64,000 nucleotides of DNA from an uncultured Chloroflexia bacterium (GCA_963789905.1 CAWBMK010000007.1:189955-253954); one strand, 5' to 3'. Positions 57,460-62,866 are shown, counted from the stretch's first letter. A program made the numbers and translations. Notes: generated from the sequence alone by a model not told the origin.

Positions 57460-58464
57460 CTAGTTCGGGAGAAGCTTGTCGGTCAGGAGCTGATCGACGG
57501 TGACGGGCTTGGCGACCGGACTGTCGGGCAGGTTGGTCATGAAGTCGAGCATGGCGGACCAGCCCGGGCGGTCGAGGGCACCGAGTCCGGCGGTCGCCGT
57601 AGTCTCGTCCTGCCACATGTCGATCGTCGCCTTGAGCACCGCCAGCTGGGTGTCGCGATCGGAACCAACCTCCGGCACGCGGACGATGGCCGCCTCCAGG
57701 CCCTTCTCAGGGTCGGCGATGATCTCCCTCTCGGCCCGCAGCGTCGCATCCACTAACGCACGCAGCGCATCGCCCTTGGCGGCCAGCGTCGAATCGCCGA
57801 CGATCAAGCCGTTGCCGACCAGCGGGACGATGTCGTCGACGGTGAAGACCACAGGATCGCCACCCGCCAGGCCGAGCACCACCGGCTCGTTGTTGGCGAA
57901 GCCCGTCGCCGCATCGCACTCGCCGCGGTCGACGCATGCACTCTGACTGAAGTCCGGGAACAGGACGAGCTCGACATCGTCGGGCGTCAGGCCGGCATCA
58001 CCGAGCAGCGCCTGGAGCATGATCCAGCTCGAGCCGTACCGGCCCGGTGTGCCGATCTTGCGGCCTTTGAGATCGGCGATCGTCTTGATTCCGGATGCGC
58101 CGGGGGCGAACACGACGTTGGGGAAGTCGGCATAGATCGTGGCCCCGTAGCGGATCGGGATGCCCTGGCTGACAGCCGGCACGACCGAGGTCCCATCGGC
58201 GAGGGCGATGTCGACGGCCCCCTGGCCGACGAGCGTGACGAGCTCGAGATCGATCTTGTTGATGAGCTCGACCTCGAGGCCCGCGTCACGGTAGTAGCCG
58301 GCTTGATCGGCGAGGTAGAACTGGGCGAACTGGACCGACGGGAAGAAGCCGAGGCCCACGGCCAGCTTGACGGGTTCGTTCGCCGAGGGCGAGGCACCAC
58401 CGGTGCAGGCGATCGCAGTCGTCGCCATAAGGAGACTTGCGATCGTGAGGCGTGCCGTCCGCAT
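57460..58464 (-). CDS. ABC substrate-binding lipoprotein, NMT1/THI5 family (RibY-like, riboflavin)
   Basis: Lipobox AIAC, PSVQFA, DLKGRKIG, GRYGSS, GFANNEP; FMN riboswitch upstream. Confidence 0.85.
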   Translation of the reverse strand: MRTARLTIASLLMATTAIACTGGASPSANEPVKLAVGLGFFPSVQFAQFYLADQAGYYRDAGLEVELINKIDLELVTLVGQGAVDIALADGTSVVPAVSQGIPIRYGATIYADFPNVVFAPGASGIKTIADLKGRKIGTPGRYGSSWIMLQALLGDAGLTPDDVELVLFPDFSQSACVDRGECDAATGFANNEPVVLGLAGGDPVVFTVDDIVPLVGNGLIVGDSTLAAKGDALRALVDATLRAEREIIADPEKGLEAAIVRVPEVGSDRDTQLAVLKATIDMWQDETTATAGLGALDRPGWSAMLDFMTNLPDSPVAKPVTVDQLLTDKLLPN

Positions 58465-58550
58465 CGATGTCCTCCGGCCCGTTGCGACCTGGGTTGTCGG
58501 TCGCCCTCAGGGGTCGGAAGGGTGGGCACGGTCGCAAGGACACGCGGCCC

Positions 58551-58710
58551 GCCTTCTTCCATCCGGACTCTCACCGTCGGCTCCGGCTCGACGTCCTCGC
58601 GGCCGCCGTTCGGATCTGCTGACACCCAGCGTTGTCGCCGGGCCGCTCGTGGGCTCGCCCGCTCTCACGGGTCCTACCACCGGTCGGGGTTTTCACCCTG
58701 CCCTGAAGGC
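58551..58710 (-). ncRNA. FMN riboswitch (RFN element) with atypical P5/L5
   Basis: Minus strand CUUCAGGGCAGGGUGAAA..CCCGACCGGUGG...CAGAUCCG...CCGGAGCCGACGGUGAGAGUCCGGAUGGAAGAAGG; P1 GCCUUC/GAAGGC; RBS-sequestering stem downstream; TG-n-TACGAT -10 at 58723-58718. Confidence 0.93.
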
Positions 58711-58760
58711 CCGCGAAATCGTAGCACGGAGCCCCGGAGAGTCCTGAATCGGCAACGGAA

Positions 58761-59507
58761 CTAGCCGCGGGCACCCAGCAGGCGGTGCTCGATGGCGACG
58801 ACGATCCCGTACATGACGACCCCCACGACGGCGATCAGGAGGAGCGTCGCGAACAAGAGGGGGATGTCGAAAAGGGCCCCCCTTGCCAGGTTGATCAGGA
58901 CGCCCAGGCCGCGGTCGCCGCCCGCCCACTCGGCCACGATCGCGCCAACGACCGCCAGGGTCACGCCGATCCGGAAGCCACCCAGGATCTGGGGCAGGGC
59001 GGCCGGGACCTCGATCGTTCGGAGGAGCTGGCCTCCTGTCGCCCGAAGCGATCGGCCCATCTCGAGGAGCCCCTGGTCGACGCTACGGAAGCCGATCATC
59101 GTGGAGACGGCGATCGGGAAGAAGACGATCAGGGCGCAGATGACGACGCGGGCCCCCAGTCCGGTCCCGAACCACAGGGCGATGAGCGGGGCGAGGGCGA
59201 GGATCGGCGTCGACTGGGCGGCCACGATGTAGGGGGACAGGACGGCGCCCGCGACGCGCGACCGGGCCAGCGCATATCCGACGAGCAACCCCAGCGTGCC
59301 GCCGACCGCGAGCCCGAGCAGGATTTCGACGAGCGTCGTAACGAGGTGCGGCCAGAAGGTCCCGTCGACCAGGGCATCCACGAACCGCTCGAAGACGACG
59401 ATGGGCCCCGGCAGGATGAATGGCGGGTAGTCGAAGATCGCCACGATCGCGGCCCATCCAACGAGGATCGCCACCGCGCCGAGGGCCACGGCCGCCCAAC
59501 GCTTCAT
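58761..59507 (-). CDS. ABC permease, SsuC/TauC type (RibX-like)
   Basis: ILPGP, QSTPILALAP, FFP, EAA-like loop, AIVAEW. Confidence 0.88.
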   Translation of the reverse strand: MKRWAAVALGAVAILVGWAAIVAIFDYPPFILPGPIVVFERFVDALVDGTFWPHLVTTLVEILLGLAVGGTLGLLVGYALARSRVAGAVLSPYIVAAQSTPILALAPLIALWFGTGLGARVVICALIVFFPIAVSTMIGFRSVDQGLLEMGRSLRATGGQLLRTIEVPAALPQILGGFRIGVTLAVVGAIVAEWAGGDRGLGVLINLARGALFDIPLLFATLLLIAVVGVVMYGIVVAIEHRLLGARG

Positions 59508-60343
59508 GGTTCGTCCGTCGGTTGTGCCGTGTCTGCCGCGGACGCATCGTCGGTGATGGCCGGCCACCCAAGCAGGCTGCGGACTTCGAGCGACGCCGCC
59601 GCAAGAAGGGGCGAGTCGAGGTCGATGATCGTCCGCGGTCGCCCGAGCGGGCTCCGGATCTCGCCGGCGATTCGGGCGGGTCGCTCGGACAGGACGACGA
59701 CCCGATCGGCCAGGAAGAGCGCCTCGCGGACATCATGGGTGACGACGACGATCGTGGTCCCGATCCGGGTCCACAGTCGGAGCAGCTCGACGTCGAAGCG
59801 CTCTCGGGTCAGGGCGTCGAGGGCGGAGAAGGGCTCGTCGAGCAGGAGGATGGAGGGCCCTCGAGCGAGGGCGCGCGCGATCGCCACGCGCTGGCGCATC
59901 CCGCCCGACAGCTCGTGAGGGCGGGCGTCGGCCGATCCTTCGACCCCGACCCGGCGGAGAAGCTCGATACCGCGCTCACGACGATCTTCGATGGGCACGC
60001 CCTCGAGCTCGAGCGGATACGTGGCGTTGTCGACGGCCGAACGCCACGGCAAGAGTCGCGGCTCCTGGAACACGAGCCCGACAGCAGTTTCCGGCCCGTG
60101 GACCGGCCTTCCGACGGCTTCCACCGATCCACCACCCGGCGAGAGGAGGCCGGCGATGAGGCGGAGCAGCGTGCTCTTGCCGGATCCGTTGGGCCCGACG
60201 ATCGCCACCACCTCGCGCGCGGCGACGTCGAGGGAGATGTCGTCGATGACCGGGGCGCCGCCCTCAGAGGTGTCGAAGGCGAAACGAAGTCCGGTCAGGC
60301 GGATCGCCGCCGTCGCCGCGGGCGGTGAGGCGGCCGCGGTCAC
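59504..60343 (-). CDS. ABC ATPase, SsuB/TauB type
   Basis: [36 protein letters not shown]; GTGA overlap with metK stop. Confidence 0.92.
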
Positions 60344-61566
60344 CCCGCAGCGGCGAGGATCGGCTCCGGCAACCCGGCATCGGCCGCAAGGAGGGCGGCC
60401 TTGTCGACCCGCTCCCACGGCAGGTCGAGATCGCTCCTGCCGAAGTGGCCGTAGGTGGCGGTCTGCCGGTAGATCGGCCGGCGCAGCTCGAGAGCCGAGA
60501 TGATCGAGGCCGGGCGGAGGTCGAAGTGGCGGTCGATGAGGGCCTCGATCCGCTCGTCGTCGATATGTCCGGTTCCGAACGTCTCGATCGACATCGAGAT
60601 GGGGCGGGCGATGCCGATCCCGTAGGCGAGCTCGAGCTCGAAGCGATCGGCGAGCCCGGCCGCCACGACGTTCTTGGCCACCCAGCGAGCCGCATAGGCG
60701 GCCGATCGGTCGACCTTCGTCGGGTCCTTGCCCGAGAAGCAGCCGCCGCCGTGGCGAGCCATCCCGCCGTACGAGTCGACGATGATCTTTCGTCCGGTGA
60801 GGCCGGCGTCGCCCATCGGGCCGCCGGTTACGAAGCGACCGGTCGGGTTGACGTGCATGACCGGATCGACACCCCGCAGCTCGTCGGGGATCGTCGGCAG
60901 GATGACCGTCTCGACGAGGTCGTGGCGGATCCTCTCGGGCCGGACGTCGGGGTCGTGCTGAGCTGCGATGACGACGGTCCTGACGCGCTTCGGAACGCCG
61001 TATTCGTATTCGACCGTGACCTGCGTCTTGCCGTCGGGTCGGAGATACGGCAGCTGGCCCGACTTGCGTACCTCGGCCAGCCGGCGAGCCATTCGATGGG
61101 CGAGCATGATCGGCATCGGCATGAGCTCGGGCGTCTCGCGACAGGCGAAACCGAACATCATCCCCTGGTCACCCGCGCCGAGCTCGCCCGACCCGGCGCC
61201 ATCCTCGCGAACCTCGAGCGCGTCGTTGACGCCCATCGCGATGTCCTTGCTCTGTTCCTTGACCGAGACGAGCGTGCCGCAGGTCAGGTAGTCGAAGCCG
61301 TACTCGGCCTTCGTGTACCCGATGTCGCGGACGGTATCGCGGACCACGACCTGGAGATCGATGTACGTGCTCGTCGAGATCTCGCCGAGGACGACGACCA
61401 ACCCTGTCGTGGTTGCCGTCTCGCAGGCGACGCGAGCGTAGGGGTCCTCGCGGATGATCGCATCGAGGATGGCGTCGCTGATCTGGTCGCACATCTTGTC
61501 CGGGTGGCCTTCGGTGACCGACTCGGACGTGAAGAGGTAGTGGGCGTCGTCGACGATGCTGGTCAT
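60340..61566 (-). CDS. metK: S-adenosylmethionine synthetase
   Basis: [45 protein letters not shown]. Confidence 0.98.
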
Positions 61567-61621
61567 GGCGCGGACTGTAGCACGCGACCTCGGGCCCTCC
61601 GACCCGCCCTCGGGCGAGGCG

Positions 61622-62866
61622 TCACGCGGCGGCGACCTTGGCCTTGAACTCCTCCCAGATGTCGAGCCGCTGTGTGTTCGAGGAGTTGTCCTTTGCGGCC
61701 TCGAGGCTGGCGATGACGGTGGCCGGCGGGTAGATAGCCGGATCGTCGAGCAAGGCTGCGTCGACGAGCGGTCGGGCCTCGTCGTTTGCGGTCGCATAGC
61801 CGTTGTGATTCGACTCCTCTGCCTGGATCGCCGGCTCCTGGATGAAGTCGAGCCAGGCGTACGCGGCGTCCACGTGGGGTGCGCCGGTCAGGAGCGTCCA
61901 CGCGTCGAGGCGGAAGAGCGATCCCTCGATCGGGACGATGTAGCCCGCATCGGACGTCTCGGGCGTCCCAAGCTCGGCGAGCAGCGGCCCCGTCCAGCCG
62001 AGGGCGAGCCACGCCTCCTCGGAAGCCAGGCGCGCCCCGTAGGTGTCCGAATCGATGGCCAGGATGTGTGGGGCCACGCCCAGCAGCACCTTCCGGGCGG
62101 CCGCCAGCTCCTTCTTGTCGACCGAGTTCAGGGAGTAGCCGAGGAGCTTGAGGGGGAACACGAACACGTCGTCCATCGAGTCGACCAGGATCGTCTTGCC
62201 CGAGGCGTCGCCCTTTACGAGCGCCTCGAACTCCTTCCACGATCGTGGCGGCAATGGGACCGCCTTGCCTCTGTAGAGGATGCCGGTCGTGTCGCCGTAG
62301 TCCTTCGGGACGTGGTACTCCTGCTGGGGGTCCCACCAGAGGTGCTGGAAGGCCGGGTTGATGAGCTGGGCGTTCGGGAGCCGGCTGAAGTCGAGCTTCT
62401 GGATGTAACCTTTCTTGATCAGCTGCGGCAGGTACTCCGCGGAAGGGCAGCAGATGTCGGAGCCGGTCGGTCCGGCCGCGAGATCGTCGAGCAGCTGCTG
62501 GTGGCTGCCGAAGCTGTCGTGGTGGACATCGGTCACGCCGAACCGGGTCCCGAACTCGTCGATGTTGTCGGGTGCGATGTTGTCGGTCCAGTCGAGGATG
62601 CCGAGCTCGGTCCCGACGGATGGACTGGGCGAGGCCGGCGGGCCCGATGGGGCCGGCGACGACGATTGCGCCAGCGAGGGTGGGGGAGACGCATCGGCGC
62701 CGCAGGCCGCGAGGATGGCGGCCGAGCCAGTGAGACCAAGGAACCGAAGGGCTGTTCGGCGGTCGATGACCTTCCGGTTGTCGACGCCCGTCCGGCGGTC
62801 GATGACCGTCCGGTTGTCGATGACCGTCGTCGGCTTGGGGCGCGCTGGGCGCGACAGGGGAACTAT
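61622..62866 (-). CDS. PotD/PotF-like polyamine ABC substrate-binding Tat lipoprotein; non-canonical (ATA/CTG) or lost start
   Basis: Frame stays open upstream of 62536 through [23 protein letters not shown] to a TAA at 62881-62879; no ATG/GTG/TTG in that stretch; PotD-like WDP, LGYSLN, PIEG, AYAWLDF. Confidence 0.75.
62757..62829 (-). repeat. 18-bp tandem repeat x4 in the signal-peptide region
   Basis: Encodes [24 protein letters not shown]. Confidence 0.85.

What the first reader, a model, noticed from the sequence alone, without database searches (positions are those of the whole stretch)
58551..58710. FMN riboswitch variant: conserved L5 T-loop replaced by a GNRA-capped hairpin
Seen: where RFN elements read GAUCCGGUG(A)AAUUCCGGAGCCGAC, this one reads GAUCCG-AACGGCGGCCGCGAGGACGUCGAGC-CGGAGCCGAC (plus-strand 58586-58610), which folds as CGGCG/CGUCG, G.A, CC/GG and a GCGA tetraloop. 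P3a is also GNRA-capped (GAGA), and core junction sequences are retained. Known: the L5 T-loop docks with L3 as one of two pseudo-symmetric contacts in the FMN aptamer fold. Inference: a structural subtype using a different tertiary contact, possibly with altered affinity or ligand. The clean stem argues against sequencing noise.
Basis: partly seen in the sequence, partly recalled or inferred. Interest (0 to 1): 0.7.

Follow-up and report, generated by a model that had tools for sequence, protein, structure and literature searches.

The report
FMN riboswitch with extended P5 stem
This is a real flavin-sensing riboswitch in front of a riboflavin-uptake gene; its odd extra hairpin is the normal form in one class of Chloroflexota bacteria, a lineage-wide structural variant, not a sign of a new ligand.

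Summary
On the minus strand, 58714-58547 matches RF00050 (FMN) over the full model at 62.0 bits. That is below the 66.2-bit cut-off because 25 nt (58586-58610) sit where the model has a 9-nt L5. The core is intact. The element lies upstream of a RibY-like riboflavin-binding protein gene, and a helix is predicted to sequester the ribosome-binding site.

On its own the hairpin is no more stable than shuffled sequence (z -0.43). Relatives show it is real. In the same bacterial family, 55 of 93 FMN riboswitches carry a P5 extension. All 7 of its pairs show compensatory changes, and the flanking purines are conserved. The GNRA tip is not conserved (12 of 53).

Another 37 of the 93 have a short P5 stub and have also lost the L3 adenine; one has a canonical L5. 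A sister family has a third form. Outside this class, 86 of 88 sampled riboswitches have the canonical T-loop hairpin.

The extended form also precedes ribD operons, so FMN remains the likely ligand. This is a lineage-wide peripheral variant of a known class. I found no description of it in print, and Rfam's threshold partly misses it.

The parts
58547..58714 (-). FMN riboswitch aptamer (RF00050-type), full-length match to model positions 1-138
   Evidence: 62.0 bits, E 1.2e-13, gathering score 66.2; the only RF00050 hit in the 2.83-Mb genome.
58705..58710 (-). P1 5' strand (GCCUUC)
   Evidence: alignment; P1 pairs kept in 53 relatives, with changes on both sides at 2 pairs.
58551..58556 (-). 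P1 3' strand (GAAGGC). The overlapping GGAAG (58556-58560) can pair instead with the downstream CUUCC.
   Evidence: alignment; the alternative pairing is read from the sequence and is an inference.
58686..58698 (-). P2 with 7-nt L2 loop UGAAAAC (T-loop-like, retained)
58649..58680 (-). P3 (GUGG/CCAC) with internal loop UAGGA / CGAGC and the GAGA-capped P3a hairpin (58658-58671). A58675 is the equivalent of A38, the L3 base that docks into L5 in the solved structure.
   Evidence: The role of A38 comes from PMC12219259. 'UA' is kept in 46 of 53 type-A relatives.
58618..58646 (-). P4, extended hairpin with ACAA loop
58611..58614 (-). P5 5' strand (UCCG)
   Evidence: helix 1 is 100% paired in 55 sequences, with changes on both sides at 2 of 4 pairs.
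58586..58610 (-). P5a insertion replacing or interrupting the L5 T-loop: 5' AA, helix CGGCG.CC/GG.CGUCG, GCGA tip (58597-58600), 3' AGC
   Evidence: fold; 7 of 7 helix pairs with changes on both sides across 55 relatives; the 5' A is present in 46 of 55; the base two positions before the P5 3' strand is a purine in 55 of 55.
58582..58585 (-). P5 3' strand (CGGA)
58564..58576 (-). P6 hairpin
58515..58520 (-). Anti-Shine-Dalgarno segment CUUCCG
   Evidence: in the MFE fold of the leader it pairs with CGGAGG. Its role is inferred.
58471..58476 (-). Shine-Dalgarno region CGGAGG, 6 nt upstream of the ATG at 58464-58462
   Evidence: No terminator-like site in 58300-59000.
57460..58464 (-). Regulated gene: RibY-like lipoprotein substrate-binding protein (NMT1/THI5-like)
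   Evidence: PF09084, E 1.6e-40. SsuA-family hit far below its cut-off. RibY is described as a COG0715 binding protein under FMN riboswitch control in PMC4418817.
58761..59567 (-). Upstream ABC permease (RibX-like; BPD_transp_1, SsuC/TauC/SaoP-like)
59504..60418 (-). Upstream ABC ATPase

Best explanation
This is a functional FMN-sensing riboswitch whose peripheral P5 element is built differently from the textbook form. The six-helix junction and all core nucleotides are those of the FMN aptamer. In place of the 7-nt L5 T-loop, P5 continues through a small purine-rich asymmetric internal loop (5' AA / 3' AGC) into an extra helix, P5a, whose sequence, length and tip are free to vary. This form is inherited across a class of Chloroflexota; named relatives are labelled Candidatus Limnocylindrales.

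Inferred mechanism: when FMN is bound, P1 forms. That leaves the downstream CUUCCG free to pair with the Shine-Dalgarno CGGAGG and block translation of a RibY-like riboflavin-binding protein. Without FMN, the 3' strand of P1 (GGAAG) pairs with CUUCC and frees the ribosome-binding site.

Also inferred: the conserved purines of the P5/P5a internal loop take over the docking role of the L5 T-loop towards the L3 adenine (A58675). They may do so as a T-loop 'interrupted' by a helix, as in P3/P3a of the same RNA, or as a different contact.

Shown here: family resemblance, conservation of the helix and its flanks, and gene context. Not shown: ligand binding, the switch, or any tertiary contact.
For: - **Aptamer match.** Full-length RF00050 match, E 1.2e-13, with every highly conserved junction position present. 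In the alignment of 53 relatives of this type the core is nearly invariant.
- **Helix conservation.** In 55 relatives aligned with a model of the P5 region, all 7 P5a pairs show changes on both sides and 84.1% of cells are paired. For the whole structure, 90.5% of cells are paired against 78.5% in shuffles (0 of 500 shuffles reach it). The covariation score is 0.266 against 0.098. With partners slid by 1-3 columns, pairing falls to 27-59%.
- **Hairpin stability across the family.** The P5 hairpins of 53 relatives have a mean z of -2.18 against mononucleotide shuffles; 47 of 53 are below -1.
- **Flanking bases.** The base after the P5 5' strand is A in 46 of 55. The base two positions before the P5 3' strand is a purine in 55 of 55.
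- **Gene context.** The downstream gene is an NMT1-type binding protein, next to an ABC permease and ATPase. This matches RibXY, which transports riboflavin and is FMN-riboswitch-regulated in Chloroflexi; monocistronic ribY behind an FMN riboswitch is reported in Deinococci (PMC4418817, passages).
- **Genes behind type-A relatives:** ribD in 7, NMT1 binding proteins in 10, ABC ATPases in 16, family-5 binding proteins in 6. The other 14 of 53 are unresolved: 5 long ORFs match only a permease domain and 9 match no family.
- **Riboflavin supply.** The genome (94.7% complete) has no match to lumazine synthase or DHBP synthase but does have an FAD-synthetase domain. This fits dependence on imported riboflavin.
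- **Expression platform.** The leader MFE pairs CUUCCG with CGGAGG, and there is no terminator.
Against: - The score is below Rfam's gathering cut-off (62.0 against 66.2).
- The window's own P5a hairpin is no more stable than shuffles (z -0.43, 60 of 200) and is among the weakest of its kind (z -0.46).
- The covariation counts were made on an alignment fitted to the structure by the model, and the sequences are related, so both measures are inflated to an unknown degree.
- The whole-leader fold is not distinguishable from shuffles (z -1.30 and -1.46), so the sequestering helix is only a prediction.
- A docking role for the internal loop is weakened by the other forms in the class. Type B (37 of 93) has neither the extension nor the L3 adenine. 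Type C keeps an extension but lacks the L3 internal loop. The contact may therefore be dispensable.
- The 3' flank varies in length (2-4 nt) and does not fit one T-loop register throughout.
- No flavokinase domain was found in the genome.
Confidence: 0.8

Rival explanations
1. Neutral expansion. The L3-L5 dock is dispensable in this lineage. P5a is an unconstrained helical insertion tolerated at a permissive site, with no tertiary role; the aptamer still binds FMN.
For: Tip sequence and helix length are not conserved: GNRA tips in 12 of 53, loop sizes 3-7, inserts 27-40 nt. Type B riboswitches in the same family lack both the T-loop and the L3 adenine ('UC' in 34 of 34) and still sit before ABC transporter genes. 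Type C keeps P5a without an L3 internal loop. Barrick & Breaker 2007 note sites where unconserved helices can be inserted (PMC2258182).
Against: A helix is maintained by compensatory change across two families of a class. The flanking bases are conserved: A in 46 of 55 and a purine in 55 of 55. The canonical T-loop is nearly absent from the class (1 of 93 in the family, 0 of 20 in the sister family) yet it is seen in 86 of 88 elsewhere. A purely neutral insertion would be expected to coexist with intact T-loop bases.
Confidence: 0.3
2. Interrupted T-loop. The T-loop is not replaced but split. The first loop base (A58610) and the A of the 3' AGC form the trans Watson-Crick/Hoogsteen-type pair, GC are the two bulged bases, and P5a is inserted in the triloop, exactly as P3a is inserted in the P3 T-loop. 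The L3-L5 dock would then be essentially the canonical one.
For: [quoted passage not shown] The window's P5 flanks (AA ... AGC) mirror the 3' flank of its own P3 T-loop (... GAGC). Clear cases of canonical T-loop bases split by a hairpin were found: L2 of L058 (UGA[helix]AAUU) and L5 of L295 (UGAA[hairpin]GUAUU).
Against: The first position is A, not U, in 46 of 55 and is never U. The G-N-R bases are missing. In many relatives only 0-1 bases lie between the conserved purine and the P5 3' strand (for example ...GA-CGGA), where a T-loop needs two bulged bases.
Confidence: 0.35
3. Altered ligand specificity. The rebuilt P3-P5 domain changes the pocket so that the RNA senses riboflavin, a flavin breakdown product, F420/FO or roseoflavin rather than FMN.
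For: The regulated gene is an importer for riboflavin, not FMN. Rare FMN-riboswitch variants with changed specificity do exist (PMC6298564). Six relatives of this type precede a family-5 binding protein of unknown substrate.
Against: All core and junction positions match the FMN consensus and are invariant in 53 relatives. The published variants differ at the positions that bind the ribityl and phosphate groups (PMC6298564 abstract), and no such change is seen here. The same subtype precedes ribD operons in 7 relatives. Canonical FMN riboswitches also control riboflavin importers.
Confidence: 0.05
4. Decaying or non-functional copy. It would be a relic between the permease and binding-protein genes of an ABC operon that no longer switches.
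For: The score is sub-threshold. The position is unusual, inside the gene cluster, 46 nt after the permease stop. The hairpin is weak, with a G.A mismatch. No promoter-like site was found.
Against: Core bases are intact. P1 is intact and a complementary anti-SD/SD pair is in place. Ten relatives have the same riboswitch-to-NMT1-gene arrangement. It is the only FMN riboswitch in a genome that appears to need imported riboflavin. A translational switch does not need its own promoter.
Confidence: 0.05

Closest known systems
FMN riboswitch / RFN element (Rfam RF00050); solved Fusobacterium nucleatum aptamer
   Same: Six-helix junction P1-P6 matched over the full model, all conserved junction bases, an L2 T-loop-like loop, the L3 adenine, and a riboflavin-related downstream gene.
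   Different: L5 is not the 7-nt UGNNANN T-loop seen in 86 of 88 riboswitches sampled outside the class. P5 instead carries a 25-nt internal loop plus helix. The score falls below the curated cut-off (62.0 against 66.2). In the solved RNA, A38 of L3 intercalates between A72 and A73 of the L5 T-loop (PMC12219259; PMC3201879); those L5 bases do not exist here.
T-loops interrupted by a helix (Barrick & Breaker 2007, PMC2258182), e.g. the P3/P3a element of FMN riboswitches
   Same: A helix emerges from the loop that caps a G-C-closed stem, with unpaired purines on both sides and an A followed by two bases on the 3' side in the window's copy.
   Different: The first base is A rather than U, the G-N-R bases are absent, and the 3' flank varies from 2 to 4 nt among relatives. 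I could not see that paper's figures, so I do not know whether it drew such an insertion at P5.
Variant FMN riboswitches of Clostridioides difficile / Atopobium (Atilho et al. 2019, PMC6298564)
   Same: Close relatives of the FMN aptamer that are easily lumped with it or missed.
   Different: Those variants differ at ligand-contact positions and reject FMN (abstract). This one differs only in a peripheral loop and keeps the pocket. That paper's text does not contain the words T-loop, tertiary or peripheral (0 occurrences).
RibXY(Z) riboflavin ABC importer of Chloroflexus aurantiacus
   Same: COG0715/NMT1-type binding protein beside a COG0600-type permease and an ATPase, under an FMN riboswitch, in Chloroflexota.
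   Different: Here the riboswitch lies between the permease gene and the binding-protein gene, so it can control only ribY. Identity to the characterised RibY was not measured.

Membership tests
FMN riboswitch (RF00050) | Bit score at or above Rfam's gathering cut-off (66.2) | tested here: not met
   62.0 bits; no hit in gathering mode. The shortfall comes from the 16 extra nucleotides in L5. Relatives with the same extension score 41-90 bits.
FMN riboswitch (RF00050) | P1-P6 six-way junction, matched end to end | tested here: met
   Model positions 1-138 of 138 aligned, not truncated. P1, P2, P3, P5 and P6 are recovered by RNAalifold on 53 relatives.
FMN riboswitch (RF00050) | Conserved junction (ligand-pocket) nucleotides | tested here: met
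   All upper-case consensus positions outside L2 and L5 are matched. 66 columns are invariant in 53 relatives. Mapping onto the numbered contact residues of the solved structure rests on recall and was not computed.
FMN riboswitch (RF00050) | L5 T-loop (UGAAA-type 7-nt loop) docking with L3 | tested here: not met
   L5 is 25 nt and folds as internal loop plus helix plus GCGA tip. This feature is peripheral, not part of the pocket. Whether it is a split T-loop is open.
FMN riboswitch (RF00050) | Association with riboflavin biosynthesis or transport genes | tested here: met
   A RibY-like gene lies downstream. Relatives of the same subtype precede ribD (7), NMT1 binding proteins (10) and ABC ATPases (16).
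FMN riboswitch (RF00050) | Selective FMN binding and ligand-dependent gene control | not testable with these tools
   Needs in-line probing or ITC and a reporter assay.
T-loop motif | U-A trans Watson-Crick/Hoogsteen pair, GNR triloop and two bulged 3' bases on a G-C-closed stem (as stated in PMC2258182) | tested here: inconclusive
   The G-C closing pair and the 3' A plus GC are present in the window. The first base is A, not U, and the GNR bases are absent. The register is not constant among relatives.
RibXY riboflavin transporter | COG0715/NMT1-type binding protein with a COG0600-type permease, behind an FMN riboswitch | tested here: met
   PF09084 at 1.6e-40; PF00528 permease with best NCBIfam hits SaoP/SsuC/TauC, all far below their cut-offs; ABC ATPase. 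The family is described in PMC4418817.
RibXY riboflavin transporter | At least 38% identity over at least 80% of C. aurantiacus RibY (orthology rule of PMC4418817); flavin binding | not tested
   The reference protein was not fetched. Binding needs an experiment.

The most novel reading that the evidence does not exclude
A whole class of Chloroflexota has rebuilt the P3-P5 peripheral domain of the FMN aptamer, which is treated as conserved. The rebuild takes three forms: an extended P5 with the L3 adenine kept, an extended P5 with L3 closed into a plain helix, and a minimal P5 stub with no partner at all. These RNAs would then fold and bind FMN through a tertiary solution not seen in any solved FMN riboswitch, or with none on that side. 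That would be a natural experiment on how much of the 'butterfly' scaffold is needed, and possibly a way of tuning affinity or folding speed differently for biosynthesis and uptake genes.
Probability: 0.4. Interest if true: 0.55.

Novelty: new variant of a known kind. Interest (0 to 1): 0.38.

Why it matters
The L3-L5 T-loop dock is one of the two pseudo-symmetric staples of the FMN aptamer, and the aptamer is a drug target (ribocil, roseoflavin). Natural aptamers that lack it, or build it differently, test directly which peripheral contacts are needed for ligand binding and folding.

There is also a practical point. Rfam's cut-off fails for about half of the genomes with a hit in this family: 43 of the 87 genomes with a hit pass it. 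FMN regulons of these abundant soil and freshwater Chloroflexota are therefore under-annotated. Adding these sequences to the seed alignment would fix that.

The window's own element is an ordinary FMN switch on a riboflavin-uptake gene.

Tried and rejected
- **Single-sequence thermodynamics as evidence for the hairpin.** Rejected: z -0.43 and -0.65.
- **MAFFT plus RNAalifold on 53 full aptamers.** This did not recover P5a because the variable hairpins were misaligned. I replaced it with a covariance model of the P5 region and its alignment.
- **Pattern scan of 185,579 species genomes** for AGATCCG-N20-45-CGGAGCCGACGG. Only 17 were real FMN riboswitches; the other 103 are chance matches in other phyla and say nothing about distribution. 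The pattern also fixes the P5 stem sequence, so it cannot find extensions on other stems.
- **Kink-turn reading of the internal loop.** I considered it and dropped it. The 5' strand lacks the required G-A after a 3-nt bulge in most relatives (from the sequences).
- **Scripted measurement of L5 loop length outside the class**. This failed or mis-parsed many sequences. The counts given rest on the printed sequences, read by eye.
- **Whole-leader MFE**. It does not reproduce the aptamer fold and is not used for the aptamer.
- **Papers not held.** Vitreschak et al. 2002 could not be read, so what it says about extra stem-loops is unknown to me. Serganov et al. 2009 was not read either; its structure is cited through PMC3201879 and PMC12219259.
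- **Literature searches for a description of this variant:** 'FMN riboswitch' with T-loop and peripheral domains, with variant/consensus/Chloroflexi, and with P5a/Limnocylindr/P3a. None describes it. Figures and the supplementary alignments of the Breaker-lab papers were not seen and may show it.

Full report
**What is there.** Read on the minus strand, 58714-58547 is an FMN riboswitch aptamer. Rfam at gathering thresholds reports nothing in the window. With E-value reporting, RF00050 matches end to end (model 1-138) at 62.0 bits, E 1.2e-13, against a cut-off of 66.2. The alignment matches every highly conserved junction position. It puts 25 nucleotides between the P5 strands UCCG (58614-58611) and CGGA (58585-58582), where the model has nine.

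They fold as AA / CGGCG-G-CC-GCGA-GG-A-CGUCG / AGC. P3a is closed by GAGA.

**Is the hairpin more than chance?** Not on its own. In this 70%-GC context, 60 of 200 dinucleotide shuffles of the 33-nt P5 element fold at least as well (z -0.43), and 50 of 200 for the 25-mer. The case rests on relatives.

**Relatives in the same family.**
- RF00050 finds one element in the window's genome (2.83 Mb, 94.7% complete).
- It finds hits in 87 of 151 genomes of the same family, and only 43 of the 151 pass the cut-off. These tallies include one unpublished genome, G162, which I did not fetch.
- I fetched 93 of the 94 hits and sorted them by the P5 element.
- *Type A, 55 loci:* the window's form. P5 carries a 27-40-nt insert that always folds as a small asymmetric internal loop plus a hairpin.
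- *Type B, 37 loci:* P5 is an 11-12-nt stub (CCCUGGCAGGG-like).
- *Canonical L5, 1 locus (L058):* a normal L5 (CCGG-UGGGAAU-CCGG), but with a long hairpin inserted in its L2 T-loop.

**Evidence for the P5a helix.** A covariance model of the P5 region aligned 55 type-A sequences. On that alignment:
- All 7 P5a pairs have changes on both sides, and 84.1% of cells are paired.
- The whole structure is 90.5% paired against 78.5% in shuffles, and the covariation score is 0.266 against 0.098. None of 500 shuffles reaches either value.
- Sliding the partners by 1-3 columns drops pairing to 27-59%.

The alignment was fitted to the structure and the sequences are kin, so these figures flatter the helix. 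The variety of helix sequences makes the same point without a model. Against mononucleotide shuffles, the 53 hairpins parsed have mean z -2.18 and 47 are below -1. The window's copy (z -0.46) is among the weakest.

**What is and is not conserved in the extension.**
- The tip is free: GNRA in only 12 of 53, with loop sizes 3-7.
- The flanks are conserved. The base after the P5 5' strand is A in 46 of 55. The base two positions before the P5 3' strand is a purine in 55 of 55 (A 32, G 23). The last flank base is C in 29 and A in 19.
- The L3 adenine is kept in 46 of 53 type-A RNAs ('UA'). In the solved structure this base intercalates into the L5 T-loop (A38; PMC12219259, passages; L3-L5 T-loop/receptor, PMC3201879). 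It is replaced by C in 34 of 34 type-B RNAs, whose P3 internal loop is also closed.

**Range beyond the family.**
- *Same class:* hits occur in two of the five families sampled (f1 16 of 44, f4 41 of 50). None was found in the other three (f2 0 of 6, f3 0 of 49, f5 0 of 1).
- *Sister family f4:* of 20 loci examined (L218, from an unpublished genome, was left out), 3 are type A. The other 17 are a third form, type C: P5 CCUG/CAGG, a 5' A and 3' (C/U)AGA internal loop, and a covarying hairpin. P3 is a plain helix without the L3 adenine.
- *Other classes of the phylum:* scores are 80-120 bits, and 30 of 30 loci have the canonical 15-17-nt P5 hairpin with a 7-nt UGNNANN loop.
- *Three other phyla:* samples of 41 genomes each, centred on genomes of loci titled Streptomyces, Holdemania and Ensifer. 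They gave 58 loci after leaving out two from unpublished genomes. Of these, 56 are canonical, one has a 5-nt loop (L270), and one (L295, 59 bits) has a hairpin inside recognisable T-loop bases, UGAA[hairpin]GUAUU.
- *Pattern scan of one genome per species:* 17 real riboswitches among 120 rows, all titled Chloroflexota, Chloroflexi, 'Chloroflexia' or Candidatus Limnocylindrales.

**Ligand.** Nothing points away from FMN. The pocket positions are the consensus ones and are invariant across 53 type-A relatives. First genes downstream:

| Riboswitch type | Downstream gene | Count |
|---|---|---|
| A (53) | ribD | 7 |
| A | NMT1-type binding protein | 10 |
| A | ABC ATPase | 16 |
| A | family-5 binding protein | 6 |
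| A | long ORF with only a permease match | 5 |
| A | no family | 9 |
| B (34) | ABC ATPase | 26 |
| B | permease match | 2 |
| B | no family | 6 |

The published altered-specificity variants differ at ribityl- and phosphate-contact positions (PMC6298564, abstract).

**Gene context and switch.**
- The downstream ORF (57460-58464) is an NMT1/THI5-type lipoprotein binding protein. Upstream on the same strand lie a SsuC/TauC-like permease, an ABC ATPase and metK.
- This is the RibXY(Z) type of riboflavin importer, shown to transport riboflavin for Chloroflexus aurantiacus and known to be under FMN riboswitches in Chloroflexi. Monocistronic ribY behind the riboswitch is reported in Deinococci (PMC4418817, passages).
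- Here the riboswitch lies between the permease and ribY, so it can govern only ribY.
- No terminator-like or promoter-like site is found.
- The leader's MFE pairs CUUCCG (58520-58515) with CGGAGG (58476-58471), 6 nt before the ATG. The 3' strand of P1 contains GGAAG, which could pair with the same CUUCC. A translational OFF switch is therefore the likely mechanism. This is an inference: the folds are not better than shuffles (z -1.3 to -1.5).
- The genome shows no lumazine synthase or DHBP synthase, has four short RibD_C-only ORFs and an FAD-synthetase domain, and shows no flavokinase domain. In a 94.7%-complete MAG this suggests, but does not prove, riboflavin auxotrophy.

**How the extension may work.** Two readings remain open.
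[quoted passage not shown] The window's flanks (AA...AGC) resemble the 3' flank of its own P3 T-loop (...GAGC). L058 and L295 show clean cases of split T-loops. Against this reading, position 1 is never U in type A, the GNR bases are gone, and the 3' flank has no fixed register.
- *New or no contact.* Types B and C show that the class tolerates loss of the L3 partner.

I put about 0.35 on a split T-loop, about 0.3 on a neutral insertion, and the rest on a different purine-mediated contact.

**Novelty.** The element is a member-like variant of a very well known class. The variant architecture is class-wide. I found no description of it in three full-text searches. I could not see the figures or supplementary alignments of the Breaker-lab papers, nor Vitreschak 2002, and any of these may show it. 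It is of moderate interest for RNA structure and for annotation, and of low interest as regulation.

Noticed in passing
L004, L005, L008-L010, L015-L017, L019-L021 and others (37 loci of the family): Type-B FMN riboswitches. P5 is reduced to an 11-12-nt stub (CCCUGGCAGGG-like). The L3 adenine is replaced by C and the P3 internal loop is closed, so both partners of the L3-L5 dock are missing. 26 of 34 precede an ABC ATPase gene. Types A and B co-occur in G066 and G107.
   Followed up: partly
L214-L234 (sister family f4), e.g. L219:1501-1663: Type-C FMN riboswitches. P5 is CCUG/CAGG with a 5' A / 3' (C/U)AGA internal loop and a covarying hairpin, combined with a P3 that lacks the L3 internal loop. 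17 of 20 loci examined.
   Followed up: partly
L058 (match of 201 nt): The only family member with a canonical L5. It instead carries an insertion of about 37 nt inside the L2 T-loop (UGA[helix]AAUU).
   Followed up: no
L295 (G446, 59 bits, below the cut-off): In the phylum sample centred on a Streptomyces-titled locus, one FMN riboswitch has a small hairpin inside recognisable L5 T-loop bases (UGAA[GGCCUCAGGCC]GUAUU). This is a precedent for an interrupted L5 outside Chloroflexota.
   Followed up: no
L002, L027, L029, L032, L035, L036 (genes about 75 nt downstream of the aptamer): Six type-A riboswitches precede a family-5 (oligopeptide/nickel-type, PF00496) binding protein. It is not among the FMN-riboswitch-regulated transporters named in the passages I read of PMC4418817, so it may be an uncharacterised flavin importer.
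   Followed up: no
whole genome G000: No match to lumazine synthase (PF00885), DHBP synthase (PF00926) or flavokinase (PF01687). An FAD-synthetase domain is present in a 422-aa open frame, and there are four short RibD_C-only ORFs. The organism may be a riboflavin auxotroph. The missing flavokinase hit is unexplained.
   Followed up: partly
window 58761-61797, minus strand: metK, an ABC ATPase and a permease lie head to tail directly upstream of the riboswitch, with overlapping or abutting ORF calls. The riboswitch is therefore internal to a possible metK-ABC-ribY transcript.
   Followed up: no
L321 (match of 166 nt): A canonical FMN riboswitch from the phylum sample centred on an Ensifer-titled locus, with an insertion of about 25 nt in the P6 loop.
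   Followed up: no
family f2 (24 genomes of about 1.1 Mb): No FMN riboswitch was found in any of the small-genome sister family (0 of 24, 0 of 6), nor in family f3 of the class (0 of 49).
   Followed up: no
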